Assembly: GCA_047639355.1 (NCBI GenBank)
Contig: JBLIOC010000003.1
Location: 1 to 49,536 of the forward strand
Direction of reading: 5' to 3'
DNA length: 49,536 nt
Origin: Minisyncoccia bacterium
GTDB taxonomy: Bacteria; Patescibacteriota; Minisyncoccia; Phycocordibacterales; UBA918
Shown one piece after another: positions 12,361 through 46,828 of the stretch. The first letter of the stretch is position 1. Each line of letters starts with the position of its first letter. The notes below the pieces were generated by a model. The model saw only the letters and a list, made by a program, of their open reading frames with translations. It was not told the origin of the DNA and did no database searches. A program made the position numbers and the translations under genes.

Positions 12361-12442
12361 ATGGGTGACACTATACCACGCCAAAACCCGCAAGAATCCC
12401 TAGACGAAAGGAAAAATGGAGGTATAGATGGCAATAGAAACT

Positions 12443-28616: not shown

Positions 28617-29948
28617 CTAAAATGTCTTATAGCTTAGGTTAGCATAATCTACTCCATGAACACTGCTTTTTATTTTTCCTGCAAACAATCCCCAAGTATC
28701 AATTAGTAGTTGTTCTCCTTTTCGTTTTCTTAATACATCTAACACATTTTTATCTGCATACATTTGGTCTCCATGCATAAACACTATAATGTCGCCACAC
28801 GTAATCGCATCTTCAAATTGTTCGATTTCTTTTATACCATGTTCAGTATATACATTAGATAAAACATGAGGGTCATATGCGTAAATATCATCTATCCCTG
28901 CGTTTTGTAATTCTTTAACCAGTTCAATTGACGGAGAAAAGCGTACATCAGAAGTAGGTGGGGAACTTTTAAAAGCTAAACCGACAACCACAACAGTTAC
29001 GTCACTTATGCCTAAATGACGAATAAATGAATCTGCAATATCCGCAACGTGCTTAGGCATAGCCGAATTAATTATTCTACCAGCATGCATAAGATTCATG
29101 ATATCTTTATTTTCACTACAGCCCTGAGCATACAAATACGGATCTTTAGTTAGACAATATCCGCCAACTCCCGGACTAGGTAAAGGTATATGGTTTCGTT
29201 CATAATTTTGATTAGCTGCCGTGATTAATTCATACACATCTACATTATGCTTAGATGCAGCTAATGCAATACTATTTGAAAATGCAAAAGTAAGATCACG
29301 ATACGAATTACTTATCAATTTCACCATTTCAGCACTTTCCAATGTATCAACAGTAATCACTTCTTGTGAAACCTTACTGAAAAAATCAGAAATTATTCTT
29401 GTTCCAGCACTACTACTTGCTGCCACTACTTGGGGTAGTGTACGCAGCTCCTCAATCGCCTTACCTTCTATAGTACGTTCCGGTGCAAAACCGACAAATA
29501 TTTCATTCCCCACGGTAAAACCAGTCAATTTTTCTAGCATAGGAATTACACGCTGATTTGTGGTTCCAGCTATCACTGTTGATCTGAGCACAACAACATC
29601 TCCAGACTTAATAACTTTTGCAATATCCTCTATAGCCGAATCCAATTGACAATAATCTGCATCACCGTTAGTAGTAAGTGAAGTGCCCACCGCAATCACA
29701 AAAATACTATTCTCATTTGATTTTGTAGCGGGAATTTCAGTTACAAATTCTAAAGAGTCCTCAACCTCCTTTAGTAGTTCGACAAGACCATTCTCATGAA
29801 AATGTGGATTATGTTTCTTTAATTGGGAAATTATCACTTCGTTAGGATCTACTCCGACTACAGAAAATCCTACTTTAGCATTAACTGCTGCTAAAGTTAG
29901 TCCTACATATCCCATGCCAAGTACTACTAATCTATATTCATCAATCAT
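28617..29948 (-). CDS. Nucleotide-sugar dehydrogenase (UDP-ManNAc/UDP-GlcNAc 6-dehydrogenase family)
   Basis: GMGYVG, LRSTV, FAPERTIEG, AEMVKLISNSYRD, PSPGVGGYCLTKDP, GLAFK, DVRFSPS. Confidence 0.93.
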   Translation of the reverse strand: MIDEYRLVVLGMGYVGLTLAAVNAKVGFSVVGVDPNEVIISQLKKHNPHFHENGLVELLKEVEDSLEFVTEIPATKSNENSIFVIAVGTSLTTNGDADYCQLDSAIEDIAKVIKSGDVVVLRSTVIAGTTNQRVIPMLEKLTGFTVGNEIFVGFAPERTIEGKAIEELRTLPQVVAASSSAGTRIISDFFSKVSQEVITVDTLESAEMVKLISNSYRDLTFAFSNSIALAASKHNVDVYELITAANQNYERNHIPLPSPGVGGYCLTKDPYLYAQGCSENKDIMNLMHAGRIINSAMPKHVADIADSFIRHLGISDVTVVVVGLAFKSSPPTSDVRFSPSIELVKELQNAGIDDIYAYDPHVLSNVYTEHGIKEIEQFEDAITCGDIIVFMHGDQMYADKNVLDVLRKRKGEQLLIDTWGLFAGKIKSSVHGVDYANLSYKTF

Positions 29949-30013: not shown

Positions 30014-30297
30014 CTAATTGCTTTCTTCAGAATTTACTGCCACTAAATAATAACCGTTAGTAATAAGGGTATTTACTTTCTTTTTCTTTTCTATATTACC
30101 ATACTGGTTTTCATTACAAAATTTAACTTACCAAAAGCAAAAGCTAATCCGTATATAATAACATTCATAAACTTACCTCTAACGACCTCTGTTTGGAATC
30201 CGACTCGTTGGATTAATGCTCCAATAGCTGACATCGTTTGTGTTTCTGGAATAAGTTCTACAGTGTCCCTGTATTTAAATAAATGTTTGAGACCGTA
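30014..30297 (-). pseudogene. Decayed 3' half of a class I methyltransferase (in repeat B copy 1)
   Basis: YGLKHLFKYRDTVELIPETQTMSAIGALIQRVGFQT...GYYLVA; homologous to 35726-36025. Confidence 0.7.
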
Positions 30298-30539
30298 GAG
30301 CCCAAAACTTGGAACCACTACACGGTTGGGCTATAGAGGCCTCACGGAGAATAAATAAGCTTAATATTGGAAAATCGGCTCTAATTTAGCATGTTTATCT
30401 ATCACACGGATGTAGCTGAACAGTAAATATACTCCACTGGGTAAAGGACGCTCAAACCTGAGTGAGGGTAATGGTGTGATTTAGTATTCTACGCCGTGCT
30501 TCCCTGTAATGAGCTCTGGATCTATGATTGCACTATTAT
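30039..30539. repeat. Direct repeat B, copy 1 (partner 35736-36269)
   Basis: Colinear with 35736-36269 apart from a ~30-bp indel near 30297. 30480-30539 is identical to 36210-36269 over 60 bp, which is the 3' end of the DUF4956 gene. Confidence 0.95.
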
Positions 30540-31149
30540 CCTTAAGCAATCCAATCAGCTCACTAGAGCGATTGGAGTCATCAAGTGCAACAGAATAAAC
30601 AAAATGGAACATATCGTTAAAGTTTTTTGCCTGTAATAATTCGTAATCTGATACAGATCCTGAAAAAATCTTATCAAGAGTTTCCTTGGTTATATTTGAT
30701 GTTGAGTTAAAAGTCAAAATAAAGCCAAATGATTCTGCCCTGTCACCAAACTCCCTGGTATGTAAGAAAAAAATAATTCCAATAATTAGTAAGCAGCCAA
30801 CAAGTGCGACGTCGTAGCTACCGGTACCAACAGAAACACCTACTGTCAGCGACAGGAATACAAAGGCTATGTCGCGAGTTTCTTTTACGATTGTTCTGAA
30901 ACGAATTAAAGAAAATGCTCCAAGCAAAGCAAATGCTCCAACTATATTCTGCTGAACGACCATCATAATCATCGTACCAACCACCCCAATGATGACCAGA
31001 GTAAAAAGAAAAGAGGGTGAATATGAAAGCCCTTTGTGTGTTTTACGGTAAACCCAGACTATGGCAAGCTGCAAAACAAAAGAAAAAAGAAGATTGAAAA
31101 TAACTATTGGCAATGAAGCCTCTGCTACTTGTAGACTTAATAGATCCAT
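30481..31149 (-). CDS. DUF4956 family membrane protein (MgtC/SapB-like TM region plus ACT-like soluble tail)
   Basis: YRKTHKGLSYSPSF, NIVGAFALLGAFSLIRFRTIVKETRDIAFVF, GVSVGTG; directly downstream of a VTC gene. Confidence 0.9.
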   Translation of the reverse strand: MDLLSLQVAEASLPIVIFNLLFSFVLQLAIVWVYRKTHKGLSYSPSFLFTLVIIGVVGTMIMMVVQQNIVGAFALLGAFSLIRFRTIVKETRDIAFVFLSLTVGVSVGTGSYDVALVGCLLIIGIIFFLHTREFGDRAESFGFILTFNSTSNITKETLDKIFSGSVSDYELLQAKNFNDMFHFVYSVALDDSNRSSELIGLLKDNSAIIDPELITGKHGVEY

Positions 31150-31156
31150 AAATTAA

Positions 31157-31861
31157 TTACCGGTGAATATGATTAGGCTTTTTTAACGTGTCGACTGACT
31201 CTGAATATTTTGAAAATGGTTGTCTAGAGAGTTCAAACTGTAGTGTAATGTATTTGAACCACCATGGTAGAGAATCAGCGAATTTTATCTCCATTATTAC
31301 ACTATCGCTAACTGAAGTCAGTGACGAGTATGTCATATTCCTGTCTGCCTGGCAAGTTTCAATGTTTCGATCAAAAGTGAGTCTGACTTTTGATTTAAAA
31401 GTCTGTTCATAAGCGCTTCTGTCGTATCTAACGATGATATGAGGACGGTAACCTTGTGAATAGTATAAATGTTTAAACTCCCTCAATTCTTTATTTTGCT
31501 CAGTATTGACAAGCAAAGCATCCATATGTTGTGAAGTAAGGAGCATACTGGAATGAGTAATACGCGATTTTATCTTCACAATATTCATGTCATATTTCTC
31601 TTTGATCTCAAAATTCATTAGTTGCGGCTCCGTGGTGAACCATTGTCCGTATGTCCGAACGCGTAATTTTTTTCTTTTTTTGTATCCGCCCAACTTATCA
31701 TGAAAATCAGTAAACTGTGGAGTATCAAAATATAGTGAAGTTACAGAATAACTCCCATTTTGCGAGACATCCTTAGCCATTCCAATCTTTTGAACAAAAT
31801 GTTCAATTGTTGCCGCCTGATGCCTAGTTAATATGTATTTAAATTCGTGACGACTGGACAT
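31157..31861 (-). CDS. VTC-domain (polyphosphate polymerase / CYTH-TTM superfamily) protein
   Basis: RHEFKY, YSVTSLYFDT, RKKLRVRTY, FEIKEK, VRYDRSAY, RLTFDRNI, IMEIKF, FSKY. Confidence 0.92.
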   Translation of the reverse strand: MSSRHEFKYILTRHQAATIEHFVQKIGMAKDVSQNGSYSVTSLYFDTPQFTDFHDKLGGYKKRKKLRVRTYGQWFTTEPQLMNFEIKEKYDMNIVKIKSRITHSSMLLTSQHMDALLVNTEQNKELREFKHLYYSQGYRPHIIVRYDRSAYEQTFKSKVRLTFDRNIETCQADRNMTYSSLTSVSDSVIMEIKFADSLPWWFKYITLQFELSRQPFSKYSESVDTLKKPNHIHR

Positions 31862-33617
31862 GGATTATTGGTTCAATTAGTACTCCTGTTACAGAGTTAT
31901 AAGTTTGGATATTAACTGTTTCTATGTCGAAGGTAGCTAAACTAGAGGTTGTAAATAAGAATTTTGTTTTTGTAACATTTACCTTCACTGGCCCGGTGGA
32001 CCCGCTTACTTCTCGGTCTGAATTCAGCACAATGCCAACATCGCTGTTATAGTACGTATCACCGTTCTGTTTTAATTTAGCAATGAATTGGTCTCCACTG
32101 TCAAGCAGGCCATCTTCATTCACATCTGCGTACATACTGAGTTCTAAGGACGGATTCGATAATTGGCCTGTAAGTGTAACTCCATGAACCATTATCCCAC
32201 TAGCGCTTTGGTGTGATAATTCCATCACTACGGGAACTAGAGACAGGTCAAGTTCTTGAGTTACTGTCAAACCAAGAGTTGCTCTGCTTAGTTGTTGTTT
32301 CAGGAAATAAAAATTTTGTTTAATGATAGAACGCGTACGCATGATGTCATTTTCAGCCACTTCATTTCTCCATAATTTTAATGAATCATTAAATAGTGAT
32401 GACTTTACCTCATCATACGTCTTATCATAGAAAGAAAGATCTTCGGTCAAGTTATAGTCGTCTGATACGTACTCCCAAAGTCTCTTGTTTCTTTCATCCC
32501 TATACTCTGAAATATTCAGAACCCTAGTAACCAAAGGATTATAGTCGTAGTCTATATCGTAAAATTCAGGATTATTTGTGAATTCGGGAAGCTGAAATAA
32601 AGAACTGTACAAAGTTAAGCTGACATCCCAAGGTATCATAAAAAACTTTTTTAGTTCGTTATTGAAGAATAATCTAGCATTATGAATATCGCCCTGATGA
32701 GTGCTGCCAGACAATATTGAGTGCAGCATCCAATTAATGAAAGTGTCTATATCAAGAACATCATCAATATTTTCCTTGAATTCTGCGTCGCTGGAGTTAT
32801 TTATCAAATTTAGTAAATAATCAAGGTCTGAGAAATCATCTTCTTCTCCCTGTATGCTTATATATTTTTTCCAGAAAAAGCTTGAGGTAAAAATCTTATC
32901 CTCAAGATTTTTTTCACCGTACAAATTTCCATTAGAAGTCCCGAATGATTTTTCCAAATAATCCGTAGTCCAACCTTCCTGCTGATAGTATAGTGCATTT
33001 GGACCATTGTTTATTGAAAGAAGAACCATCTCATCTTTTGGAACAGGTAGACCAAGTTTGCTCGCACGGTACCCATTAAAAAATTCACCAATATATAGTC
33101 GATCAAAAGGAACTATTAATTTTATTTCAGACTGGTCATTGAGTAAATCGTCTGACTTGAACCTGATAGTCCATGATTTCTTGTCATTGAACCAATGGCG
33201 CCATTTATCTCCTCTATACCCAACCCTTACTTGTCTTGGCAATGAGTCAGCAATAAATATAGCGTCGACCTTTTCTCTGTTAGCGCTTGTCAGGAACTCC
33301 GATGGATTTGTAGGAAGAGCTAAAGACAGTTTTGCTAAATCCTTATCTGAAATTTGCAAATCATATTTCGTAAGGTCAGAAGACCTAAATATATAAAGGG
33401 AAAAAGGTAAATCCCGAACATCATCAACTATTGACCTAATGGGAGCGGGGATTTCCGTTACGAGCTTAGCGCGAGGGATACCTAGAAAATATGCATACGC
33501 AAGTACAACGCTAACAATAGCGGTAACCACAACTCCAGCAAACAATATTCCAAAAATCCACGCGTGGTATCTACGTACGGAGATCTCTGTGTTTAGTTTT
33601 TTTAATAGACTCTGCAT
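31839..33617 (-). CDS. CotH kinase family protein, N-terminally membrane-anchored
   Basis: One TM, then VGYRG, KKSWTIRF, IGEFF, LSINN...LYYQQE, GNLY, LDIDTFINW, HNARLFF...FFMIPWD. C-terminal DVNEDGLLDSGD is a Ca-binding-like loop. Confidence 0.85.
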   Translation of the reverse strand: MQSLLKKLNTEISVRRYHAWIFGILFAGVVVTAIVSVVLAYAYFLGIPRAKLVTEIPAPIRSIVDDVRDLPFSLYIFRSSDLTKYDLQISDKDLAKLSLALPTNPSEFLTSANREKVDAIFIADSLPRQVRVGYRGDKWRHWFNDKKSWTIRFKSDDLLNDQSEIKLIVPFDRLYIGEFFNGYRASKLGLPVPKDEMVLLSINNGPNALYYQQEGWTTDYLEKSFGTSNGNLYGEKNLEDKIFTSSFFWKKYISIQGEEDDFSDLDYLLNLINNSSDAEFKENIDDVLDIDTFINWMLHSILSGSTHQGDIHNARLFFNNELKKFFMIPWDVSLTLYSSLFQLPEFTNNPEFYDIDYDYNPLVTRVLNISEYRDERNKRLWEYVSDDYNLTEDLSFYDKTYDEVKSSLFNDSLKLWRNEVAENDIMRTRSIIKQNFYFLKQQLSRATLGLTVTQELDLSLVPVVMELSHQSASGIMVHGVTLTGQLSNPSLELSMYADVNEDGLLDSGDQFIAKLKQNGDTYYNSDVGIVLNSDREVSGSTGPVKVNVTKTKFLFTTSSLATFDIETVNIQTYNSVTGVLIEPIIHVQSSRI

Positions 33618-35668
33618 TATTCATTAATTAACATAACCGACTTGCCGTCATTTTCGTATTCTATAAGCACGTCTGAGAACTCCGAACGAAAGACTCTAGC
33701 TACTGAAGGTCCGAATACAGGTTTTTTTACGTACACGGAAATTCCGACCCTGTCGTCAATGAAGACGTTATCCTCGATGACTGAGTCTGATCGGTCCTTT
33801 ACTGCAATGCCGATGTCACATCCTTGAATTGTATTGCTGGTAATCCTTGGATTTGATGATTCTCCTACGCTTATACCCTTATCGGTGCAGCCAAGTATAT
33901 TATTATCGGATATTTCTATACTACTCCAACTAAGGTCTATACCGTCACCACCTCCTCCATAACCATTCTCCAGCAAATCATTATTTTTTATTACGGTGTT
34001 ATCTTTTGCAAAATCAATATCAATCGCATCAGAAAAGTTATCACTAAACACAGATGTGGTTACGCTTGCTCTACCGAACTTTATGTTTAAAGCATCGTCA
34101 TCGCCAGCATTTGAAAAAGTAGAGCTTGCAACATCTACATTAGCATTATGGAACGCAACCATACCTGTATATGTCACACCATTTACCACATCTCCTGAAC
34201 CTCCACTAAATCTTGCATACTGGAGCAAGCTATCTTCTGGGGTATTTATAACTGCAACAGTCCCCCAAGTAGCACTACGAAGTCCTGCAAAATTTACTGG
34301 AAAATCTTCTGTGCCCAGAATTGTTATAGGACTATAGGAGATTATCGAGACACCACTGTCGAGTAACGCATTTGCGCCCGCTTGTACAACTAACTTGAGT
34401 CCAAGTGGAATGATGGCTGTTTCTCTAAAAACAGATCTCCCGGGTTGGAGAATAATAGTATTATTTTTCCCTGAAGCAAATTGTAAGTTAGTCGATAAGA
34501 AAGCCTCTTTATCATAAAATATTTCATCGATTCTATCGAACAATATAGGCAGATCATATAAAGATACATCACTCGATGACTCATATGAATTATCGGAAAA
34601 AACTAAATCTTGTGAAATTGAATCCAGCACAGATTCTTTTGTTCTAAGAATGGCACCGCCAGTAGTATTTTTACTAAAGTCCTTCAGTATACTTCTTGTG
34701 CTGAGACCTTGTATCTCACTAAAGGTAGACCTTTCATCATCTATGCGCTTTTGATTGTCAGTAAAACCTTTTGCTAACTTATCACGAGAATCTCTAAATT
34801 TATCGATTGAAAATACTCTCTGTGATAATGTATCTGTACTACAGTTACTATCAATTGATACATACTGAAACCTTCCGGTCGCGGTGTTATAAAGCATTGT
34901 CGTTTGACTTGAAGTTAACCTTTCTGAGCTAGCCTGTATAATGACGCAGCGATAGAGACTATCGATATCAAGAATGGAACCAATCGTGCGTACAAAATCT
35001 TCGTCCGATGTTTTGTACAAAATATTTTCTAGGGTCTGTAGCATTCCATCTTGTGCCTCACCAAACAATACTTCACTCTCAATTAATCCGTCTGGCACAA
35101 AGCTCATTGAAAAAACGCTACTGTCATCAGGCAAACGTAGGCCATCAAGCTTACTTTTATCCCATACCTGAATTGCCACAAACACACGGGATGCTGATCC
35201 GTTTAGTTTTAGATTTACTAACCGTGCCCCTGGAGAGAGGTAGTTTAGATTATCTGCTCGATAGGTATCAAATACGAGTCTGTAGTTCTCATTAGTCAGA
35301 GGGCTAAAAATAAAAGATCCGGCACCGTTGAAGGGCTGATCACTGGGCAAAGAAACAACAATAGTGTCGTCTATAGAGTGCTTTAATTTTGAAGTGGACT
35401 GATATTCGCCCCACTTAACGAGAACTTCTCCTTTTCCGTTAGTTTCCTGAATCACAACGAATGGAAGGTATTCGCCTCCGAGCAGACCAAAAGGAAGAAA
35501 CACCAAATCTGTAACTTTTATCAGGCTGTTATATACTCGAGCAAATTGTCTTTCAATGGCAGAGTTCTGGCCTGACGGATCTATGTATCCCGGAAGCGAA
35601 AAAGAGGCCACTAGCAAAGCAATGGCCAATATAATAATAATAAAAGTGTAACGCCACCGAAGCCTCAT
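33617..35668 (-). CDS. Membrane-anchored protein: degenerate CotH-like domain plus right-handed parallel beta-helix
   Basis: The N-half aligns with the neighbouring CotH (SDEDFVRTIGSILDIDSL versus SDAEFKENIDDVLDIDTF). The C-half has PbH1-type repeats GDDALNIK, SDAIDIDF, GDGIDLSWS, DKGISVGE, IGIAVKD. Confidence 0.8.
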   Translation of the reverse strand: MRLRWRYTFIIIILAIALLVASFSLPGYIDPSGQNSAIERQFARVYNSLIKVTDLVFLPFGLLGGEYLPFVVIQETNGKGEVLVKWGEYQSTSKLKHSIDDTIVVSLPSDQPFNGAGSFIFSPLTNENYRLVFDTYRADNLNYLSPGARLVNLKLNGSASRVFVAIQVWDKSKLDGLRLPDDSSVFSMSFVPDGLIESEVLFGEAQDGMLQTLENILYKTSDEDFVRTIGSILDIDSLYRCVIIQASSERLTSSQTTMLYNTATGRFQYVSIDSNCSTDTLSQRVFSIDKFRDSRDKLAKGFTDNQKRIDDERSTFSEIQGLSTRSILKDFSKNTTGGAILRTKESVLDSISQDLVFSDNSYESSSDVSLYDLPILFDRIDEIFYDKEAFLSTNLQFASGKNNTIILQPGRSVFRETAIIPLGLKLVVQAGANALLDSGVSIISYSPITILGTEDFPVNFAGLRSATWGTVAVINTPEDSLLQYARFSGGSGDVVNGVTYTGMVAFHNANVDVASSTFSNAGDDDALNIKFGRASVTTSVFSDNFSDAIDIDFAKDNTVIKNNDLLENGYGGGGDGIDLSWSSIEISDNNILGCTDKGISVGESSNPRITSNTIQGCDIGIAVKDRSDSVIEDNVFIDDRVGISVYVKKPVFGPSVARVFRSEFSDVLIEYENDGKSVMLINE

Positions 35669-35725
35669 GGCTTCGACTATACAGTAAATTTAAGTTTTAT
35701 CAAAACAAATTAAAAAAAATATGGT

Positions 35726-36025
35726 TTATTTTTTAGCTACCAAATAATAACCGGTGGTGATAAGAGTATCTACTTTCGCTTGTTTTGTAATATCACCATA
35801 TTGATTTTTATTACGAAATTTAACTTTTCGAAAATGAATGCTAATCCGTATATAATAGCTTTTGTAAATTTACTTCCATAAAGATCTGTTTGGAATCCAA
35901 CTCGTTAGATTAGTGCTCCTATGGTTGACATCGTTTGTGTTTCTAGAATAAGCTATACAATGTTCCAGTCTTTAAACAGGTGTCTAGACCGTACTCAGTG
36001 TATCTATAATAATCGTGTGGGGCAT
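35726..36025 (-). pseudogene. Decayed 3' half of a class I methyltransferase (in repeat B copy 2)
   Basis: APHDYYRYTEYGL-[frameshift]-RHLFKDWNIV*LILETQTMSTIGALI*RVGFQT...TGYYLVAKK*. Compare PYDYQRWTAAGLEHLFKDF in 38320..39024. Confidence 0.75.
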
Positions 36026-36269
36026 AGAGCCCAAAACTTGGAACCGCTACAGAGTTGGGTTATAGAGGCCTCACGGAGCATAAATAGGCTTAATATTGGA
36101 AAACCGGCTCTAATTTAGTGTGTTTATCTATCACACGGATGTAGCTGAACAGTAAATATGCTCCGCTGGGTGAAAAATGTTCGAACCTGAGTGAAGGGGA
36201 ATGGTATGCTTTAGTATTCTACGCCGTGCTTCCCTGTAATGAGCTCTGGATCTATGATTGCACTATTAT
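35736..36269. repeat. Direct repeat B, copy 2 (partner 30039-30539)
   Basis: See copy 1. It ends in an orphan 60-bp exact copy of the DUF4956 3' end. Confidence 0.95.
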
Positions 36270-36452
36270 AACTTTAATATAAAAAATTACTATGTCTGAT
36301 AAAAAGAGACCCGTCAGGGATAGAGAGTGAACTAAAATTTACCTATAAGTTTTGATTGGAGATAATTCTTGCATACTGTTAGTAATCTACAAAATGAGCC
36401 ACCCCGCGGGCGGGGTAAAGTATTAAACAAACATAGTTGCGTATGAGGGTTT

Positions 36453-38318
36453 TTAATCAAAATTGGTGATCTTTAGCACCTTTACATCATTGTTTTCATA
36501 TATGATATCGCCGGATAAATCAGCTACTCCTGGAGAATTTGCTGAATCAGTGTATATGACGTAGTCCAGCCTATACTTACTCAACCATTCTTGTATCAGA
36601 GTATCTTGAGACTGCCGGAATGCAGACTGGATTTTGATTGGAGTCTCACGCAAGAACCGTTCAACCTGCCCTGGTTTTTCCATCGCTTGTAGAAATGCTA
36701 TCTTACGGTGAGCAAATTTCTCTACCCAGTCGCTAAAAAACAGATCTCGCCACTCACTATCATTTTTAACTAGATACTCATCAATAGTATCAACTGTCAC
36801 CCCTTGTAGTCGTAAATACGCTATGTAGTTGTGCATTATACGCTCCTCAGGTATTGCCATGAAGACATAGTGAGAATGATAGCTGTCACACGGTGTATAG
36901 GCGGTTAGGTTGTCGCTAATTTCAAAACCATGTGAACCTCTTAACTCAGATTGCGAAGGTAGCATGATAGCTACACAATCTCCTGTGGAATGTTGAGTAG
37001 ATAATAACTCAAACACGGGGCTATACTTCTGTATATCAGTGTAGTCGGATTCCCATGTATGTGTGCTTTGTAAACTCGAGAGTTGCACACTAACTAAGAT
37101 GCCGATCACGAATGGTACACCAAGCCACACCGCGCGATTGAAGAGCGACTGGAGTAACATGGAGTTTTGAAACCTATTTAAAAGCCCAACTACAATTACA
37201 CACACGGAAAGTAAGATCACAATCAATGAAAGTGGATCAGTGTATTGCACAAAATGACTTGGCCAGACAGCAACACCTGTTATCGCTTGCTGATTATAAG
37301 CCAAGAATGAACCCAGCAAAGCGGCAACGCCAAAACGGAGCCAGTTCCGTTGCAGCAACTCTCGTACTGGTGTTTTTTGCCACGCTACAAACGCAGCCAC
37401 AAGCAACACTACTCCGGCTACTACTATTCCATTATTAGAAACTGATTCATGAGTATAAAATAAACCATTCTTTTCTAAACTTGAACCGCCGCCACTTCCA
37501 AGCAAAATACTTAAAAAATACCCAGCATTTATTGCTAGCGCAATAACGGCAGCAAAAACTAATTCATACACTCGCTCCCACTCACGATTTATAAGAACAA
37601 AGGCACCCCAGATTAGCAACATAAACACCAGGAGTACAAAAGAAAACACATAGGCACTAGAGATTCCCACTAGCACACCAATAACCGCCGCACGCAACCA
37701 AGAAAACGGCCGGTCTTTTGCGCTCGCTAGTAGGTACAGTACTGAAAAAAGAATGAGTCCTCCAAAAATAGGATTCACTGAGCGAGTCCAAATAGATAAA
37801 ACTGGAGCAGCATAATCAGAGGCGAGAAGATTTAGTGTATTTCCAAGGCGATGAATACCAATACCCTGCGCAATAATAAAAGATCCAAACAGAGCAATGA
37901 ACTGTCTGGTTCGTAGTGAAGAAAAACCAGTATCAGTAAGCAGTCTATATATTAGTAAATATACTAGTACGAATAGAATGGCTGGAAATAAAAATTTTGT
38001 GGACAAGACCACAAATGGTAGTAACTCTGCTTGCCCCAAAGCAGACGCTGCATACACCCCCTCGCCAAATGGCTGCTGTGCTTGGGGAGAATCTTTATAT
38101 TCATAAAATACAGGCGAGGTAACCGGCCAGTTACCTTCAGTTATTTCACGCATCCGACTGATATAGCGCAATTCGCTATCTTGGTAAAAATATTGCAGTT
38201 TAGACCCCTCTAGGTCTGCCGGCGGCGGACCGACAAACAAATAAGCATAGATATACGGCGCTATACTCAAAACACCCACTAAAATGGTAAGTGCATAAAT
38301 AATATATTGTTTCAACAT
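36453..38318 (-). CDS. Polytopic membrane protein, probable GT-C-fold glycosyltransferase
   Basis: First TM, then a loop with QDSELRYISRMREITEG, about 11 further TM segments, and a soluble tail ending KYRLDYVIY...IYENNDVKVLKI. Confidence 0.55.
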   Translation of the reverse strand: MLKQYIIYALTILVGVLSIAPYIYAYLFVGPPPADLEGSKLQYFYQDSELRYISRMREITEGNWPVTSPVFYEYKDSPQAQQPFGEGVYAASALGQAELLPFVVLSTKFLFPAILFVLVYLLIYRLLTDTGFSSLRTRQFIALFGSFIIAQGIGIHRLGNTLNLLASDYAAPVLSIWTRSVNPIFGGLILFSVLYLLASAKDRPFSWLRAAVIGVLVGISSAYVFSFVLLVFMLLIWGAFVLINREWERVYELVFAAVIALAINAGYFLSILLGSGGGSSLEKNGLFYTHESVSNNGIVVAGVVLLVAAFVAWQKTPVRELLQRNWLRFGVAALLGSFLAYNQQAITGVAVWPSHFVQYTDPLSLIVILLSVCVIVVGLLNRFQNSMLLQSLFNRAVWLGVPFVIGILVSVQLSSLQSTHTWESDYTDIQKYSPVFELLSTQHSTGDCVAIMLPSQSELRGSHGFEISDNLTAYTPCDSYHSHYVFMAIPEERIMHNYIAYLRLQGVTVDTIDEYLVKNDSEWRDLFFSDWVEKFAHRKIAFLQAMEKPGQVERFLRETPIKIQSAFRQSQDTLIQEWLSKYRLDYVIYTDSANSPGVADLSGDIIYENNDVKVLKITNFD

Positions 38319-39603: not shown

Positions 39604-41454
39604 TTAACCCCATTTATCTGCCCATTTTCCTAACACATACAGAGACCATAGTGCTTTTCTGTGGTCTATGTCGCCGTTCACATGTTCTGTTAAAAGCTGT
39701 TCTATTCTATCACGTCTAAAAATTCCTAACTTTTGCAAACCACCATCCAACAAAGATTCCCGAAACTCCTGTTTTAATTCATTTCTAATCATGTCACCAA
39801 CGGGAAAATTAAACCCTTGTTTCTTTCGATAAATAATCTCGTGTGGCAATCTTGTTTCAGCAAGCTTCTTCAAAATATACTTTTGAGTACGGCCGCGCAA
39901 CTTCCAATGGTCATTAAGTTGTGCTGCAAAATTGACAAGTCGTTCATCAAGAAACGGTGATCTGACCTCAAGCCCATAGTGCATCGAAGCTCGATCTGCT
40001 TTTACTAAAATATCATCAAGCAAGTACCCTTGAAGATACTCTTGCTTAACCCCTTGCCAGAGCGAATCCGTGCCCTGGTGCCACTTTTCAATTGGTGCAA
40101 ATAGCTCTTCTTGATTAATCACTTCGGAAGATAAGGATTGTATCTGCTCTGGATCAAGAGCAGACAGCCAAAGTGTATTTCGCAATCGTGGCTCTCCTAC
40201 ACAACCACGAAGAAATCGCTTCAACTTGAAATCAAAGCTCATATAACTGTGCGACACAGGTAATTTGATTGCTGCAGTGTAGGCGGCATTACGTAGCCAT
40301 AGTGGTAAGTGATGAAATGCACCGGCTACACGATGTGCATAAAAGGTGCCGTACCCAAGAAACAATTCATCGGCGCCGTCACCACTAAGACATACTGTTA
40401 CCTCACGTCGCGCATGCTCCGATACTAAAAGTGTCGGAATGATCGACGAGTCTCCAATCGGCTCATCGAGTACTGTTGGCAGATTTGGCAAAAGTCTCGT
40501 GATGTCTGATGTACTAAGTGTAGCTTCGTGATGCTCGGTCCCTAAGTGTTCCGCGACTTGCTGAGCTGAAGCTTGTTCATTGAAACTTTTTGACTCAAAA
40601 CCTACGGAAAATGTCTTTACCGGACGTGAGGAGTGCTCTTGCGCAAAGGCGGCCACCAGACTCGAATCTAATCCGCCACTAAGGAAAATACCGACCGGAA
40701 CATCTGCAACTAACCGTTTCTGAACTGCCCCAGAAAATAGACTTTCTAACTGGAGTATAGGATCTACACCTGTATCGGTGTCATATAAAACTGGAGAGAC
40801 TTGAGAGACTTGAGAAGACTGTACAATGCCTTTTTTAACAGTAAGAATCTGACCGGGTTCTAGTTTATGGACATCTTTATATATTGTTCGTGGGGTTGGA
40901 ATGTATTCAAACAATAAGTATTGATAGATAGACAGACTGTCTGTCTCTGACTTAAAGCTTGGATGCTTATGTAGTGCTTTCAGTTCAGATCCGAAAATAA
41001 ATGCGCCATCTGGAGCAGTCGTGTAATACAGTGGTTTTTTCCCTAGTCTGTCTCGATGGAGATGTAACGTACCCTTAACGGAGTCATAAATCGCCAACGC
41101 GTACATGCCTTCCAAATAATCAAAGGCAGAAACACCCAATTGAGCGAACAGTTCAAGTATCACCTCCGTATCTGTATCACTTTGCAGCCTAACTGAACCA
41201 AGGTACTTTTCGCGTAGACTACGAAAATTATACACTTCACCGTTATAGACAATGGTGTAGCGGCCATCACGACTGGTCATAGGCTGCACTCCTTCATCAC
41301 TGAGATCTATCACTGCCAATCGTCTATGGGCCAACCCAACCTGTCCGAACATTTTAAACTGGCCAGCATCTGGCCCTCGATGAAGCAGAGTGTTTCCCAT
41401 TGCCTCTGCAACGTGACAGTCTCCTCCACCGATAAATCCAGCGATACCGCACAT
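39604..41454 (-). CDS. asnB: Asparagine synthase (glutamine-hydrolysing)-type amidotransferase
   Basis: MCGIAG, HRGPD, HRRLAVIDL, YNGEVYN, RDRLGKKPLYY, FLSGGLDSS, SGDGADELF, LEVRSPFLD, KQGF. Confidence 0.95.
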   Translation of the reverse strand: MCGIAGFIGGGDCHVAEAMGNTLLHRGPDAGQFKMFGQVGLAHRRLAVIDLSDEGVQPMTSRDGRYTIVYNGEVYNFRSLREKYLGSVRLQSDTDTEVILELFAQLGVSAFDYLEGMYALAIYDSVKGTLHLHRDRLGKKPLYYTTAPDGAFIFGSELKALHKHPSFKSETDSLSIYQYLLFEYIPTPRTIYKDVHKLEPGQILTVKKGIVQSSQVSQVSPVLYDTDTGVDPILQLESLFSGAVQKRLVADVPVGIFLSGGLDSSLVAAFAQEHSSRPVKTFSVGFESKSFNEQASAQQVAEHLGTEHHEATLSTSDITRLLPNLPTVLDEPIGDSSIIPTLLVSEHARREVTVCLSGDGADELFLGYGTFYAHRVAGAFHHLPLWLRNAAYTAAIKLPVSHSYMSFDFKLKRFLRGCVGEPRLRNTLWLSALDPEQIQSLSSEVINQEELFAPIEKWHQGTDSLWQGVKQEYLQGYLLDDILVKADRASMHYGLEVRSPFLDERLVNFAAQLNDHWKLRGRTQKYILKKLAETRLPHEIIYRKKQGFNFPVGDMIRNELKQEFRESLLDGGLQKLGIFRRDRIEQLLTEHVNGDIDHRKALWSLYVLGKWADKWG

Positions 41455-44998: not shown

Positions 44999-46828
44999 CT
45001 ACTCTACCTGTATCTTATTTTTATGTGCCCAAACTTGCAAGGTAAGCAAGTTCCACAATGGATTGAGATGATAACCCTTTACTTCAATATGATCTGAGAG
45101 CATATTCTGTACCTCTGGCCAATTTATTAATGAAGATAAACCATCATAGTATGAATCAGAAAATACCAAACGGACCTGCTGTTCAATAATTGGATCTCGA
45201 AGCCATTTTGCACCTGGAGACAACCAACCTCGCTTAGGTTGGCTAAATAGGTAGTCTGGTAAGTGACCCCGATAAGCATTTCTAAGAATTTTTTTGGTCG
45301 TCAGCGGAGTGAGTTTATTTTGATCATGGACTCCGTCTGCCAGGTTCACTACCGACAACCCAAGGAGAGGCACTCGAACTTCGACCCCTACTGCCATTGA
45401 GGACCTGTCGGTTCGGTGGAGAGCGTCATCGGCCAACCATGACTCTCTATCTACTCTCATAAATTTTTCAAAGGGCTTCAGTTGTGACACTTCGGACTCA
45501 GCGTAACGCTCACTAAATAGGTCAGAGGAAGATTTGTTGGATATTTTCTTTCTTAAAACTTTATTAACCGAATCAGAGGGAAACATCATCAGTAAAGAAT
45601 GCATGTCTGGACCGAGCAGTGTTTGAAGTTTGCCAGCTCGCGAGTGTAACTGGGCTACTCCAGACTGAATTAAGTTTGGTAATTTCTGAAAATAAAGAGC
45701 AGCCAAAGTTATAGCGTGTCTTTCGTACCCTCCCCACAATTCATCTCCACCATCTCCACCAAGTGCCACTACCACTCCATCTTTTCGGACAAAACGACTT
45801 AAAAAGAATTGGGTTACTGTTGTGGGGTTAGATACCGGCTCATCCAACTGGCCCAAAATTGATAGTAGTTCTGACCGAACATCATGAAGACTGATAGAAA
45901 AGGTGCTGTGCTCGCTGCCATATATCGATGCTGTCTGTGCTGCCAAGGTAGCATCAGCATTAAATTTCTCTGTCTCTGACTCCGAACCAGCGACCATTTC
46001 AAAACCGCTAGAAAAAGTCTTAATTTTTCCAATCTCAGAAGCGTGATGCAGAACAATACTCGAATCTAAACCACCAGAAAGAAAAACACCCAAAGGCCTG
46101 TCGGACACCATTTGTGCAGTGACCTCAGAACCAATAGTTTTAACTAACTCCTTTTTAGAGACTGAAGTTTTGCTTGGTTTTATGGGATGAAAATATCTAT
46201 CGATTTCTAACTTACCTTTAGAAAATCTTGCTAAGTGTCCAGGTCTTAATTTTTTAATCCCTAATACCAGAGTATCGGGACTCGGAACATAGTTCAATGT
46301 CAGAAATTGTGACACAGCTTCTGTGTCAAGAATTCGTTGATCAGAGCCTGCTATAAGGCCTGTTAGTTCAGAAGAAAAAAACAGAGAAGAATCTAACTGA
46401 GAATAATATAGCGGTTTTACCCCTAAATGATCTCTTACGAGAACCAACTCATCTGTGTCAGCGTCATACCAGGCAAAAGCAAAAATACCCTCAATTCTAT
46501 CCACGGCAGATTCACCCCAAGTGGCGAGAGCGGCCAGTAACACCTCACTGTCACCCTGACTTTTGAATTCCCAATCAGGCAGTTGACTGCGTAAGGCTTT
46601 GAAATTATATATTTCACCATTGAATACCAAAAGATGTCGTCCGTCAGGGCTTAGCATTGGTTGATTTGCCACTGCTGAAGTATCAATAATGGACAAACGA
46701 TTATGACCAAAGGTTACCGAGCCAACTGACTGCACGCCGGTAGCGTCAGGCCCTCTATGCATCGTAGAAGAAACCATCTTATCAACTGCTGCTTTAGTAA
46801 TTTTGTATCCCCCATTAATTCCGCACAT
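44999..46828 (-). CDS. asnB: Asparagine synthase (glutamine-hydrolysing)-type amidotransferase, second paralogue
   Basis: MCGING, HRGPD, HNRLSIID, FNGEIYN, RDHLGVKPLYY, FLSGGLDSS, GGDGGDELW, VEVRVP. Confidence 0.94.
   Translation of the reverse strand: MCGINGGYKITKAAVDKMVSSTMHRGPDATGVQSVGSVTFGHNRLSIIDTSAVANQPMLSPDGRHLLVFNGEIYNFKALRSQLPDWEFKSQGDSEVLLAALATWGESAVDRIEGIFAFAWYDADTDELVLVRDHLGVKPLYYSQLDSSLFFSSELTGLIAGSDQRILDTEAVSQFLTLNYVPSPDTLVLGIKKLRPGHLARFSKGKLEIDRYFHPIKPSKTSVSKKELVKTIGSEVTAQMVSDRPLGVFLSGGLDSSIVLHHASEIGKIKTFSSGFEMVAGSESETEKFNADATLAAQTASIYGSEHSTFSISLHDVRSELLSILGQLDEPVSNPTTVTQFFLSRFVRKDGVVVALGGDGGDELWGGYERHAITLAALYFQKLPNLIQSGVAQLHSRAGKLQTLLGPDMHSLLMMFPSDSVNKVLRKKISNKSSSDLFSERYAESEVSQLKPFEKFMRVDRESWLADDALHRTDRSSMAVGVEVRVPLLGLSVVNLADGVHDQNKLTPLTTKKILRNAYRGHLPDYLFSQPKRGWLSPGAKWLRDPIIEQQVRLVFSDSYYDGLSSLINWPEVQNMLSDHIEVKGYHLNPLWNLLTLQVWAHKNKIQVE

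What the first reader, a model, noticed from the sequence alone, without database searches (positions are those of the whole stretch)
30481..35681. Candidate polyphosphate-fuelled extracytoplasmic kinase system: beta-helix/pseudokinase - CotH - VTC - DUF4956
Seen: four tightly coupled genes (1-nt overlap, 23-nt overlap, 7-nt gap) behind one -10 box, embedded in a glycan locus and bounded as a unit by direct repeats. The VTC protein has no TM or signal, DUF4956 is polytopic, and both CotH-like proteins have a single N-terminal anchor. Established: yeast Vtc4 polymerises polyP from ATP and threads it through a TM channel; CotH is related to the secretory kinases Fam20C and Fam20B, the latter a glycan kinase; ATP is scarce outside the cytoplasm. 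Inference: VTC + DUF4956 form a split bacterial VTC synthase-translocase that exports polyP as phosphoryl donor or substrate for the outward-facing CotH, which phosphorylates or polyphosphorylates the surface glycan held by the beta-helix. The VTC-DUF4956-CotH neighbourhood occurs in other bacteria, but I know of no functional description.
Basis: partly seen in the sequence, partly recalled or inferred. Interest (0 to 1): 0.85.

Follow-up and report, generated by a model that had tools for sequence, protein, structure and literature searches.

The report
Bacterial VTC–DUF4956–CotH surface cassette
A tiny-genome bacterium carries, inside its surface-sugar gene cluster, a conserved four-gene set that pairs a yeast-type polyphosphate-making enzyme and a membrane protein with two outward-facing kinase-like proteins, which may be a way to bring phosphate chemistry to the outside of the cell, though no step has been tested.

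Summary
Four co-oriented genes (30481-35668, minus strand) have the stated overlaps, domains and topology. They sit in a Wzx/Wzy-type glycan locus and are bounded by a ~530-nt direct repeat.

The VTC protein keeps all nine Vtc4 residues named as critical for polyphosphate synthesis. These include the lysine that separates active Vtc4 from inactive Vtc2/3.

DUF4956 is modelled as five TM helices plus an ACT-like cytoplasmic domain, with an invariant R-F-R motif.

Linkage in two phyla (585 genomes):
- DUF4956 occurs in 33 of 34 cases with VTC.
- CotH over its cut-off occurs in 25 of 26 cases with VTC.
- VTC+DUF4956 also occurs without CotH, then often beside a Cthe_2159 beta-helix protein.

The genome shows no PPK1, PPK2 or PPX.

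- The CotH lacks the canonical catalytic Asp. It has Gln there, with a conserved His beside it.
- Gene 1 is a degenerate CotH fused to a beta-helix.
- In S. intermedius, deleting the VTC homologue gave no reported phenotype, while deleting its two neighbours did.

The gene trio is already in print (Gram-positive pel loci, 2020 and 2025), without a mechanism. This scan has also noted it before on other DNA (229 notes). My verdict is a real module. Polyphosphate export feeding surface chemistry is the best reading, but it is unproven.

The parts
33617..35668 (-). Gene 1 (P0001, 683 aa): N-terminal membrane anchor (7-25), degenerate CotH-like domain, C-terminal right-handed beta-helix (about 500-650)
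   Evidence: hhalign against the profile of fused CotH+beta-helix proteins gives probability 100%, E 4e-61, over residues 103-678. The conserved His and Asn of the clade are lost.
31839..33617 (-). Gene 2 (P0002, 592 aa): N-terminal anchor (21-39), CotH kinase-fold domain (about 110-445), C-terminal beta-sandwich (446-589)
   Evidence: Pfam CotH 78 bits. AF2 pLDDT 91.2. Foldseek best hit is B. cereus CotH 5jda, E 7.5e-19, TM 0.81 on the target. Motif G-S-T-H307-Q308 ... N313 ... D331.
31157..31861 (-). Gene 3 (P0003, 234 aa): soluble VTC / Vtc4-type triphosphate-tunnel domain
   Evidence: Pfam VTC 124 bits. No hydrophobic helix. The profile matches Vtc4 structures at E 4e-22. All nine listed catalytic residues are conserved.
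30481..31149 (-). Gene 4 (P0004, 222 aa): DUF4956, five TM helices plus a cytoplasmic beta-alpha-beta-beta-alpha-beta (ACT/ferredoxin-like) domain
   Evidence: Pfam DUF4956 54 bits, and a weak MgtC match below its cut-off. AF2 pLDDT 83 with five helices between residues 13 and 131. Invariant G77, R83, F84, R85, G104, G108 in 87 sequences.
30039..30539 (.). Direct repeat, copy A: last 59 nt of the DUF4956 gene plus about 440 nt of spacer before the UDP-glucose dehydrogenase gene
   Evidence: No Rfam match. Folding no better than shuffles, z 0.06.
35736..36269 (.). Direct repeat, copy B, upstream of gene 1
   Evidence: Folding z -0.38.
36211..36267 (-). Relic of a DUF4956 gene tail inside copy B: 18 codons plus stop, with no start and a stop codon just upstream
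   Evidence: tblastn 18 of 18 residues identical to P0004 205-222. This C-terminus is conserved in the family consensus.
35676..35703 (-). Promoter-like site (TTGATA-16-TATAGT) 8 nt upstream of the gene 1 start
   Evidence: Such sites are not more frequent than in shuffles, so this is a lead only.
36399..36418 (-). Terminator-like hairpin after the upstream 621-aa membrane-protein gene, marking the cassette as a separate unit
   Evidence: 11 terminator-like sites against 4.3 +/- 2.6 in shuffles.

Best explanation
The four genes form one envelope module with two halves.

Core (inferred). The soluble VTC protein is a Vtc4-type enzyme that builds a phosphate polymer from ATP at the cytoplasmic face. 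DUF4956 is its obligate membrane partner, with five TM helices, a conserved basic R-F-R motif at the inner membrane face and an ACT-like cytoplasmic domain. Probably as an oligomer, DUF4956 passes the polymer or its phosphoryl groups to the outer face. The inside-negative membrane potential would favour this direction.

Output (inferred, weaker). Two membrane-anchored, outward-facing proteins use the exported phosphate on the Wzx/Wzy-made surface glycan:
- P0002 is a CotH-fold enzyme. It has its metal-binding Asp and its Asn, but a His/Gln where the canonical catalytic Asp should be.
- P0001 is a degenerate CotH fused to a polysaccharide-binding-type beta-helix, which would hold the glycan.

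What is shown: domain identity, conserved catalytic residues, topology, gene linkage, glycan context, and the absence of other polyphosphate enzymes.

What is not shown: polyphosphate synthesis, export, contact between the proteins, the donor used by CotH, and the acceptor.
For: 1. VTC looks catalytically competent. P0003 keeps K200, R264, R266, K281, Y359, R361, E426, S457 and K458 of Vtc4, as K8, R67, R69, K87, Y146, R148, E191, S217 and K218.
   - The mapping comes from the profile alignment to 8i6v_E.
   - The residue list and mutant data come from passages of bioRxiv 10.1101/2023.01.27.525886 and PMC9911596.
   - Eight of these columns are 125-126 of 126 identical in homologues; S217 is 123 of 126.
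   - K458 is Ile/Leu in the inactive Vtc2/Vtc3.

2. VTC and DUF4956 are obligately linked.
   - In 401 genomes of this phylum, VTC is in 22, DUF4956 in 19 and both in 18.
   - In 184 genomes of a second phylum, VTC is in 16, DUF4956 in 15 and both in 15.
   - In 17 loci holding both genes, they are directly adjacent in 11, separated only by the CotH gene in 5, and 5 kb apart in 1.

3. CotH depends on the pair, but the pair does not depend on CotH.
   - CotH over its cut-off lies in a VTC genome in 14 of 15 and in 11 of 11 cases.
   - The one exception, G374, has CotH at a contig end.
   - 4 and 5 genomes have VTC+DUF4956 without Pfam CotH.
   - Three VTC+DUF4956 loci have a Cthe_2159 beta-helix gene as the adjacent third gene in place of CotH: G020 and G219, which lack Pfam CotH, and G331, whose CotH lies about 40 kb away.
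   - Among the 14 control genomes, B. subtilis has CotH without VTC. Its CotH works in spore-coat assembly, whose proteins are made in the mother cell (passages of PMC7821199).

4. All 19 third partners examined (16 CotH-like, 3 Cthe_2159) have a single N-terminal helix after a net-positive N-terminus.

5. No PPK1, PPK2 or Ppx-GppA was found in this 92.8%-complete genome.

6. Link to glycan synthesis.
   - The window is a glycan locus.
   - The 70 ORFs flanking nine loci with this CotH/beta-helix type include 14 GT1-type, 11 epimerase/dehydratase, 5 GT2, 4 DegT and 3 Wzx. The 63 ORFs flanking eight other loci include only 2 GT2.
   - One relative is a GT2 synthase fused to VTC.
   - Relatives of that GT2 have VTC-DUF4956-CotH-like genes 2-3 kb downstream.

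7. One locus has a phosphate-selective porin (Porin_O_P) gene next to VTC.

8. In yeast the polymerase sits on a channel lined with basic residues, and needs the membrane gradient (passages of PMC9911596).
Against: 1. At the position of the catalytic Asp, P0002 has Gln308 in both HMMER alignments to B. cereus CotH.
   - The equivalence of B. subtilis D228 to B. cereus D224 is my own inference, from the 23-residue spacing to the metal-binding Asp.
   - D228Q is the engineered dead mutant of B. subtilis CotH.
   - The enzyme may therefore not be a kinase of the known kind.

2. In S. intermedius, deleting the DUF4956-like and CotH genes cut aggregation by more than 50% in one medium and changed Pel levels in opposite directions. 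The VTC-homologue deletion still aggregated, and no defect was reported for it (passages of PMC12345266). A strictly linear VTC -> DUF4956 -> CotH path predicts that all three deletions should look alike.

3. DUF4956 has no detectable sequence or fold likeness to the Vtc1/3/4 channel.
   - No VTC subunit appears among PDB sequence hits up to E 10.
   - Foldseek matched only the C-terminal domain, weakly, with best E 5.6e-3.
   - Its nearest named relative, MgtC (below the Pfam cut-off), is not known to be a channel.

4. TTM enzymes share much of this active site. Conserved residues therefore do not exclude triphosphatase or other chemistry.

5. No enzyme of the kinase fold is known to me to use polyphosphate as donor (recalled knowledge, not searched).

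6. All linkage counts are from related genomes, which are not independent.
Confidence: 0.4

Rival explanations
1. Polyphosphate itself is the exported end product, a surface or matrix polyanion. The outward-facing beta-helix and CotH-fold proteins bind, anchor, trim or pattern it, and no phosphate is transferred to a glycan.
For: - VTC+DUF4956 occurs without CotH in 4 of 18 and 5 of 15 genomes.
- Three VTC+DUF4956 loci have a Cthe_2159 beta-helix binding protein as the adjacent third gene in place of CotH.
- P0001 is catalytically degenerate yet retained.
- P0002 lacks the canonical catalytic Asp.
- A phosphate-selective porin gene lies next to VTC in one locus.
Against: - The CotH clade keeps its Asn (21 of 22), its metal-binding Asp (19 of 22) and a conserved His (19 of 22). 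That pattern argues for catalysis.
- This clade sits inside glycan loci far more often than the other types do.
Confidence: 0.22
2. The module is regulatory. VTC makes or breaks a cytoplasmic phosphate signal. The MgtC-like/ACT protein senses it and tunes the glycan synthesis or export machinery. CotH phosphorylates surface or secreted proteins independently, with another donor.
For: - The C-terminal domain of DUF4956 has the ACT-like fold typical of ligand sensors.
- In S. intermedius the DUF4956-like and CotH deletions changed Pel levels in opposite directions, while the VTC deletion showed no defect.
- A GT2 synthase fused to VTC exists.
- Whitfield et al. proposed regulation by protein phosphorylation (passage of PMC7112168).
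Against: - It does not explain why CotH is found with VTC in 25 of 26 genomes.
- It does not explain why the third partner is always extracytoplasmic.
- No donor is offered for an outward-facing kinase.
Confidence: 0.15
3. The VTC protein is not a polymerase but another triphosphate-tunnel enzyme, for example a triphosphatase or nucleotide-modifying enzyme. The module handles something other than polyphosphate.
For: - The TTM superfamily carries out diverse reactions with one active-site plan (abstract of PMC4641920 in the listing).
- Bacterial sequences have an Arg-x-Glu-x-Lys start and two extra invariant basic residues (R63, K65) that Vtc4 lacks.
Against: - All nine Vtc4 residues tested in yeast are kept, including the Lys that marks the active subunit.
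- Pfam VTC scores 124 bits.
- The best PDB matches are Vtc4 rather than other TTMs.
Confidence: 0.1
4. The four genes are neighbours without a common function.
For: The promoter-like site is not above chance.
Against: - The overlaps of 1 and 23 nt.
- The co-occurrence and adjacency in two phyla.
Confidence: 0.03

Closest known systems
Eukaryotic VTC complex (yeast Vtc4/Vtc3/Vtc1; PDB 3g3q, 7ytj, 8i6v)
   Same: Both have a Vtc4-type tunnel domain with the same nine catalytic residues. Both show an obligate pairing with a membrane component. The proposed logic is also the same: synthesis coupled to passage through a membrane along basic residues.
   Different: - There is no SPX domain and no fused three-helix TM domain. 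The protein is a 234-aa single domain.
- The membrane partner is a separate five-helix MgtC-like/ACT protein with no detectable likeness to Vtc1.
- The direction would be out of the cell rather than into a vacuole.
- There is an extracytoplasmic CotH or beta-helix partner.
cotH / polyphosphate-polymerase / DUF4956 (/DUF4832) accessory genes of Gram-positive pel loci (Whitfield et al. 2020, PMC7112168; S. intermedius SIR_1592-1594, PMC12345266)
   Same: The same three families lie next to each other and next to exopolysaccharide genes (passages).
   Different: - No Pel family and no DUF4832 appear among the 39 window ORFs scanned. The locus is Wzx/Wzy-type.
- The CotH here belongs to a clade with His/Gln at the catalytic-Asp position, and the clade is typically fused to a beta-helix.
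- The host is a CPR-type bacterium.
- The 2025 paper reports not finding the trio outside pel loci. This window and the loci are such cases.
Bacillus CotH spore-coat kinase (PDB 5jd9/5jda)
   Same: The fold matches (Foldseek E 7.5e-19, TM 0.81 on the target). So do the Pfam family, the metal-binding Asp and the catalytic-loop Asn.
   Different: - The catalytic Asp is not kept.
- It has a membrane anchor and a predicted outward orientation.
- It has an extra beta-sandwich.
- It is always found with VTC and DUF4956, which B. subtilis lacks.
Secretory-pathway kinases Fam20C/Fam20B (and POMK) of animals
   Same: [quoted passage not shown] Both are kinase-fold enzymes acting outside the cytosol. 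That Fam20B and POMK phosphorylate glycans is recalled knowledge.
   Different: Those enzymes use ATP imported into the secretory pathway (recalled). Here no ATP source is evident, and a polyphosphate enzyme is linked instead. No Fam20 structure appeared among the Foldseek hits listed.
MgtC family (five TM helices plus an ACT-like domain)
   Same: The predicted architecture is the same. There is a weak Pfam MgtC match. The 2025 paper describes SIR_1592 in these terms.
   Different: The match is below the Pfam cut-off (21.1 against 31.4 bits). MgtC is known as a regulator of other membrane proteins, not as a partner of a TTM enzyme (paper passage).

Membership tests
VTC domain / Vtc4-type polyphosphate polymerase (PF09359) | Match to the family model above the curated cut-off | tested here: met
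   124.4 bits against a cut-off of 23, covering 2-234 of 235 profile positions.
VTC domain / Vtc4-type polyphosphate polymerase (PF09359) | Triphosphate- and metal-binding residues shown by mutation to be needed for synthesis (K200, R264, R266, K281, Y359, R361, E426, S457) | tested here: met
   They map to K8, R67, R69, K87, Y146, R148, E191 and S217. They are 123-126 of 126 conserved.
VTC domain / Vtc4-type polyphosphate polymerase (PF09359) | Lys458, which distinguishes active Vtc4 from inactive Vtc2/Vtc3 | tested here: met
   K218, conserved in 126 of 126 sequences.
VTC domain / Vtc4-type polyphosphate polymerase (PF09359) | Makes polyphosphate from ATP | not testable with these tools
   Needs an enzyme assay.
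Eukaryotic VTC complex | SPX sensor domain and a fused three-helix TM domain that forms a pentameric channel | tested here: not met
   Only the VTC domain was found and there is no hydrophobic helix. The DUF4956 profile finds no VTC subunit in the PDB up to E 10.
CotH kinase (PF08757) | Family model above the cut-off, and the CotH fold | tested here: met
   P0002 scores 78 bits against 23.8, and its best Foldseek hit is 5jda at E 7.5e-19. P0001 scores only 17 bits, below the cut-off, but hhalign to the fused CotH+beta-helix profile gives E 4e-61.
CotH kinase (PF08757) | Catalytic Asp (B. subtilis D228) | tested here: not met
   Gln308 is at the aligned position in P0002. In the 22-sequence clade alignment that column is Q 10, A 4, E 2 and others. 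A His one residue earlier is present in 19 of 22. P0001 has neither.
CotH kinase (PF08757) | Metal-binding Asp (B. subtilis D251) and catalytic-loop Asn | tested here: met
   In P0002 these are D331 (19 of 22 in the clade) and N313 (21 of 22). In P0001 the Asn is Gln and the Asp is kept.
CotH kinase (PF08757) | ATP-dependent Ser phosphorylation of protein substrates | not testable with these tools
   Needs an assay.
DUF4956 (PF16316) | Family model above the cut-off | tested here: met
   54.3 bits against 30.6.
MgtC family (PF02308) | Family model above the cut-off | tested here: not met
   21.1 bits against 31.4. The architecture is similar.
cotH-PPP-DUF4956 accessory set of pel loci | The three families are adjacent | tested here: met
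cotH-PPP-DUF4956 accessory set of pel loci | Contiguous with pelDEADAFG; DUF4832 present | tested here: not met
   No Pel or DUF4832 family was found among the 39 window ORFs scanned against Pfam. Short and nested ORFs were not scanned.

The most novel reading that the evidence does not exclude
Bacteria have a split, VTC-type polyphosphate synthase-exporter: a soluble Vtc4-like enzyme plus a DUF4956 oligomer. It supplies phosphoanhydride energy to the outside of the membrane. A clade of CotH-fold enzymes, with a conserved His beside the lost catalytic Asp, uses that polyphosphate instead of ATP to phosphorylate surface glycans held by a fused or partner beta-helix, possibly through a phospho-His step. 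This would be the first extracytoplasmic phosphoryl-donor system and the first polyphosphate-using member of the kinase fold.
Probability: 0.2. Interest if true: 0.9.

Novelty: new variant of a known kind. Interest (0 to 1): 0.66.

Why it matters
Polyphosphate synthesis in bacteria is credited to PPK1 and PPK2, and this genome shows neither. If the VTC-DUF4956 pair makes and exports polyphosphate, three things would follow:
- It would be a third bacterial route to polyphosphate.
- It would explain how a phosphate polymer reaches the cell surface.
- It would offer an answer to how an outward-facing kinase-fold enzyme is fuelled where there is no ATP.

The module is widespread. There are 4620 VTC representatives at E <= 0.001. 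It is present in B. thetaiotaomicron, C. glutamicum and M. acetivorans among the control genomes. It is also tied to exopolysaccharide and biofilm loci of streptococci. A test in one tractable carrier would therefore speak for many organisms. In a CPR bacterium of 0.88 Mb that lives attached to other cells, spending 5 kb on surface phosphate chemistry suggests a role in the cell-cell interface.

Tried and rejected
1. Complex prediction on VTC (alignment of 126 rows) with DUF4956 (87 rows) gave no answer: score 0.00 against a mark of 0.32, and the controls were not run. This says nothing either way about binding.

2. Structured RNA or small gene in the repeat.
   - No Rfam match at the gathering score or at E <= 1.
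   - Folding energies were no better than shuffles, with z 0.06 and -0.38.
   - No ORF is shared by both copies.
   - Rejected.

3. Excision or cassette polymorphism through the repeats.
   - Contigs of two DNA runs show no joint across the cassette. They simply break at the repeats.
   - No RNA holder was listed, so there is no evidence on expression.

4. Likeness of DUF4956 to solved channels. The PDB sequence search and Foldseek gave only weak hits, and only to the C-terminal ferredoxin/ACT-like domain. Nothing matched the TM part.

5. Word-based protein searches for VTC and CotH returned only 12 hits each.

6. The PNAS 2016 CotH paper is not held. The catalytic residues were taken from PMC7821199 instead.

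7. Rosetta-stone search for a VTC::DUF4956 fusion. Of the seven longer proteins among the top 150 VTC representatives that I scanned, none is fused to DUF4956. One is fused to a GT2 synthase.

8. Supplementary figures of the pel papers (operon maps S4-S7) could not be seen. They may show more about which genomes carry the trio.

Full report
**Observation**

Four ORFs lie head to tail on the minus strand:
- 33617-35668 (683 aa)
- 31839-33617 (592 aa)
- 31157-31861 (234 aa)
- 30481-31149 (222 aa)

They have a 1-nt overlap, a 23-nt overlap and a 7-nt gap.

Pfam gives the following:
- Gene 1: Beta_helix/NosD, plus a CotH match below the cut-off.
- Gene 2: CotH, 78 bits.
- Gene 3: VTC, 124 bits.
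- Gene 4: DUF4956, 54 bits, with a weak MgtC match below its cut-off.

A hydropathy scan finds one N-terminal helix in genes 1 and 2. Each follows a net-positive N-terminus, so the bulk of each protein should lie outside. VTC has no such helix, and DUF4956 has several.

The rest of the window, from about 10 kb to its end, is a Wzx/Wzy-type glycan locus. It holds Wzy_C, Wzx, GT1/GT2/GT47, sugar-nucleotide enzymes, many methyltransferases, two AsnB-like amidotransferases and a PAPS synthase.

The genome has 880 kb in 42 contigs and is 92.8% complete. The closest DUF4956 homologues carry Parcubacteria/Paceibacterota names. Earlier notes of this scan call the genome Paceibacteria-like CPR; I did not check that myself.

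**The repeats**

A direct repeat of about 530 nt bounds the cassette: 30039-30539 and 35736-36269, at 78-96% identity. These are the only two copies in the genome.

The repeat starts 59 nt inside the DUF4956 gene. The upstream copy therefore carries 18 codons plus the stop of a DUF4956 tail (18 of 18 residues identical). That tail has no start, and a stop codon lies just before it. The C-terminus (…ITGKxxVEY) is conserved in the family, so this is a gene relic and not chance.

The 60 nt of the relic are identical to the live gene, while the rest of the repeat has diverged by 15-22%. I cannot explain that.

The repeat matches no Rfam family, folds no better than shuffles and holds no shared ORF. 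Contigs of two DNA runs show no cassette-less form.

The simplest reading is an old duplication or replacement of a cassette of the same kind.

The promoter-like site in front of gene 1 exists, but such sites are as frequent in shuffled sequence.

**VTC**

An exhaustive search finds 4620 representatives at E <= 0.001, nearly all about 240 aa.

A profile of 126 of them matches the Vtc4 central domain at E 4e-22. Through that alignment, every residue reported as critical in yeast is present:

| Vtc4 | P0003 |
|---|---|
| K200 | K8 |
| R264 | R67 |
| R266 | R69 |
| K281 | K87 |
| Y359 | Y146 |
| R361 | R148 |
| E426 (Mn ligand) | E191 |
| S457 | S217 |
| K458 | K218 |

The residue list comes from passages of bioRxiv 10.1101/2023.01.27.525886. 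The R264A/R266A/E426N dead mutant is described in PMC9911596. These columns are 123-126 of 126 conserved.

K458 is Ile or Leu in the inactive Vtc2/Vtc3. The bacterial proteins therefore resemble the active subunit.

They lack SPX and TM domains. They also carry two further invariant basic residues, R63 and K65.

**DUF4956**

An AF2 model (pLDDT 83) has five TM helices (13-37, 45-65, 69-87, 91-108, 112-131) and a C-terminal beta-alpha-beta-beta-alpha-beta domain. Foldseek matches only that domain, and weakly, to S6 and ACT-type folds (best E 5.6e-3). The PDB sequence search finds no VTC subunit.

G77, R83, F84, R85, G104 and G108 are invariant in 87 sequences. By the positive-inside rule, the R-F-R motif lies at the cytoplasmic end of helix 3. 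That placement is my inference.

So the partner is MgtC-like in build, not Vtc1-like. Any channel function is a hypothesis.

**CotH proteins**

The P0002 model (pLDDT 91.2) superposes best on B. cereus CotH (5jda, E 7.5e-19, TM 0.81 on the target). It also has an extra C-terminal beta-sandwich.

Both HMMER alignments to 5jd9 place Gln308 at the position of the Asp that lies 23 residues before the metal-binding Asp. I equate that Asp with B. subtilis D228, whose D228Q mutant is inactive (passages of PMC7821199). The numbering bridge between the two species is my inference.

In 22 clade members:
- That column is variable.
- A His one residue earlier is present in 19.
- The Asn is present in 21.
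- The metal-binding Asp is present in 19.

Three CPR loci instead have the canonical N-x-D-S-F form.

Relatives of this clade are usually single proteins of 760-1200 aa with CotH fused to a beta-helix. P0001 aligns over residues 103-678 with that fused family (hhalign E 4e-61), but it has lost the His and the Asn. Gene 2 is an unusual enzyme rather than a textbook kinase.

**Linkage**

In 401 genomes of this phylum (intersections counted by me from the listed handles):
- VTC is in 22. Three of these are short or weak matches.
- DUF4956 is in 19.
- CotH is in 16, of which 15 are over the cut-off.
- VTC and DUF4956 are both present in 18.
- All three are present in 14.
- The only DUF4956 or CotH genome without VTC, G374, has the pair at a contig end.

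In 184 genomes of a second phylum:
- VTC is in 16, DUF4956 in 15 and CotH in 11.
- Every DUF4956 genome and every CotH genome has VTC.
- Five genomes have VTC+DUF4956 without CotH.

In 17 loci with both genes, the two are adjacent in 11, separated only by CotH in 5, and 5 kb apart in 1.

Three VTC+DUF4956 loci carry a Cthe_2159 beta-helix protein as the adjacent third gene in place of CotH (G020, G219, G331). G020 and G219 lack Pfam CotH altogether, while G331 has a CotH about 40 kb away on the same contig.

All 19 third partners have the same N-terminal anchor.

Among the 14 control genomes, the three families ring together in B. thetaiotaomicron, C. glutamicum and M. acetivorans. Only B. subtilis has CotH alone.

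These genomes are related to one another, so the counts overstate independence. Even so, the pattern is the same in two phyla.

**Glycan link**

The 70 ORFs flanking nine loci of the His-type/beta-helix kind are dominated by glycan families: 14 GT1-type, 11 epimerase/dehydratase, 5 GT2, 4 DegT and 3 Wzx. The 63 ORFs flanking eight other loci are mixed, with 2 GT2.

One VTC relative is fused to the C-terminus of a membrane GT2 synthase. Relatives of that synthase have VTC, DUF4956 and a CotH-like gene 2-3 kb downstream in two loci (L050 and L057). In two more loci (L048 and L049) only a truncated VTC fragment is seen at the end of the fetched stretch. That makes 4 of 11 loci with a VTC match.

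One locus has a phosphate-selective porin gene beside VTC.

**Other polyphosphate enzymes**

No PPK1 (two models), PPK2 or Ppx-GppA match was found in this genome. The genome is 92.8% complete, so absence is likely but not proven.

**Literature**

The trio is in print.
- Whitfield et al. 2020 list cotH, a polyphosphate polymerase, DUF4956 and DUF4832 as accessory genes of Gram-positive pel loci, and suggest regulation by phosphorylation (passages).
- The 2025 S. intermedius paper found reduced aggregation for the DUF4956-like and CotH deletions. It reported no defect for the VTC deletion. It also states that the trio was not found outside pel loci (passages).
- C. perfringens NELoc-2 lists VTC genes, 222-226-aa membrane proteins and CotH side by side (table passage).

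Only five papers in the library contain 'DUF4956'. Searches for VTC with CotH, with DUF4956 or with bacterial TTMs found no mechanistic study.

This scan has noted the same module before on other DNA: 229 notes in at least 214 genomes. These include a SAR11 case with His at the catalytic Asp, and cases with TolC-type ducts.

**Reading**

The data best fit a two-part module.
- The core is a Vtc4-like polymerase plus its membrane partner, which delivers phosphate polymer to the outer face.
- The output end is variable and outward-facing: CotH, CotH+beta-helix or Cthe_2159. Here it acts on the locus glycan.

The asymmetry argues that the core supplies something the outside proteins need. CotH needs the core, but the core does not need CotH.

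Three things keep my confidence at about 0.4:
- the missing catalytic Asp,
- the silent VTC deletion in S. intermedius,
- the lack of any evidence of contact or export.

The main rivals are polyphosphate as the end product (0.22) and a regulatory module (0.15).

**Verdict**

I class it as a new variant of a known kind: a bacterial, split, SPX-less relative of the VTC system, joined to an atypical CotH clade in a CPR glycan locus.

Noticed in passing
window 14725-16383 (-): A fused ATP-sulfurylase/APS-kinase (PAPS synthase) gene sits inside the glycan locus of an 0.88-Mb genome. It hints that the surface glycan is sulfated. No sulfotransferase was identified among the ORFs scanned.
   Followed up: no
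window 36210-36269 vs 30480-30539: The 60-nt relic of a DUF4956 gene tail is identical to the live gene tail, while the rest of the same repeat is 78-85% identical. This could be gene conversion or a site for cassette exchange. It remains unexplained.
   Followed up: partly
window 36453-38318 (-): A 621-aa protein with about ten hydrophobic helices and no Pfam match even at E 0.1 lies directly upstream of the cassette. It may be an undescribed glycan polymerase or GT-C-type enzyme.
   Followed up: partly
window 39604-41454 and 44999-46828 (-): Two asparagine-synthase-like glutamine amidotransferases lie in the glycan locus, together with a UDP-glucose dehydrogenase at 28617-29948. This suggests amidated uronic acids in the glycan.
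   Followed up: no
protein P0257; loci L050, L057: P0257 is a 718-aa fusion of a membrane GT2 synthase (Glyco_tranf_2_3) with a C-terminal VTC domain. In Bipolaricaulota-type MAGs the unfused GT2 has VTC, DUF4956 and a roughly 900-aa CotH-like gene 2-3 kb downstream.
   Followed up: partly
L034 8339-9565 (-), genome G314: A phosphate-selective porin (Porin_O_P, E 2e-55) gene lies directly after VTC. The genome is filed in the same small-genome phylum but has 2.0 Mb in 250 contigs. It is either a double-membraned member or a mis-binned contig.
   Followed up: no
L039 4104-6149, L037 7281-8717, L035 3-944: In three CPR genomes the third gene after VTC-DUF4956 is a membrane-anchored Cthe_2159-family beta-helix carbohydrate-binding protein instead of CotH.
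   Followed up: partly
L031 7949-8902 (+): A reverse-transcriptase (RVT_1) gene lies just upstream of the VTC-DUF4956-CotH set in genome G139.
   Followed up: no
window 10132-12393 (-): A 753-aa Wzy_C (O-antigen ligase/polymerase-type) protein has C-terminal TPR repeats.
   Followed up: no
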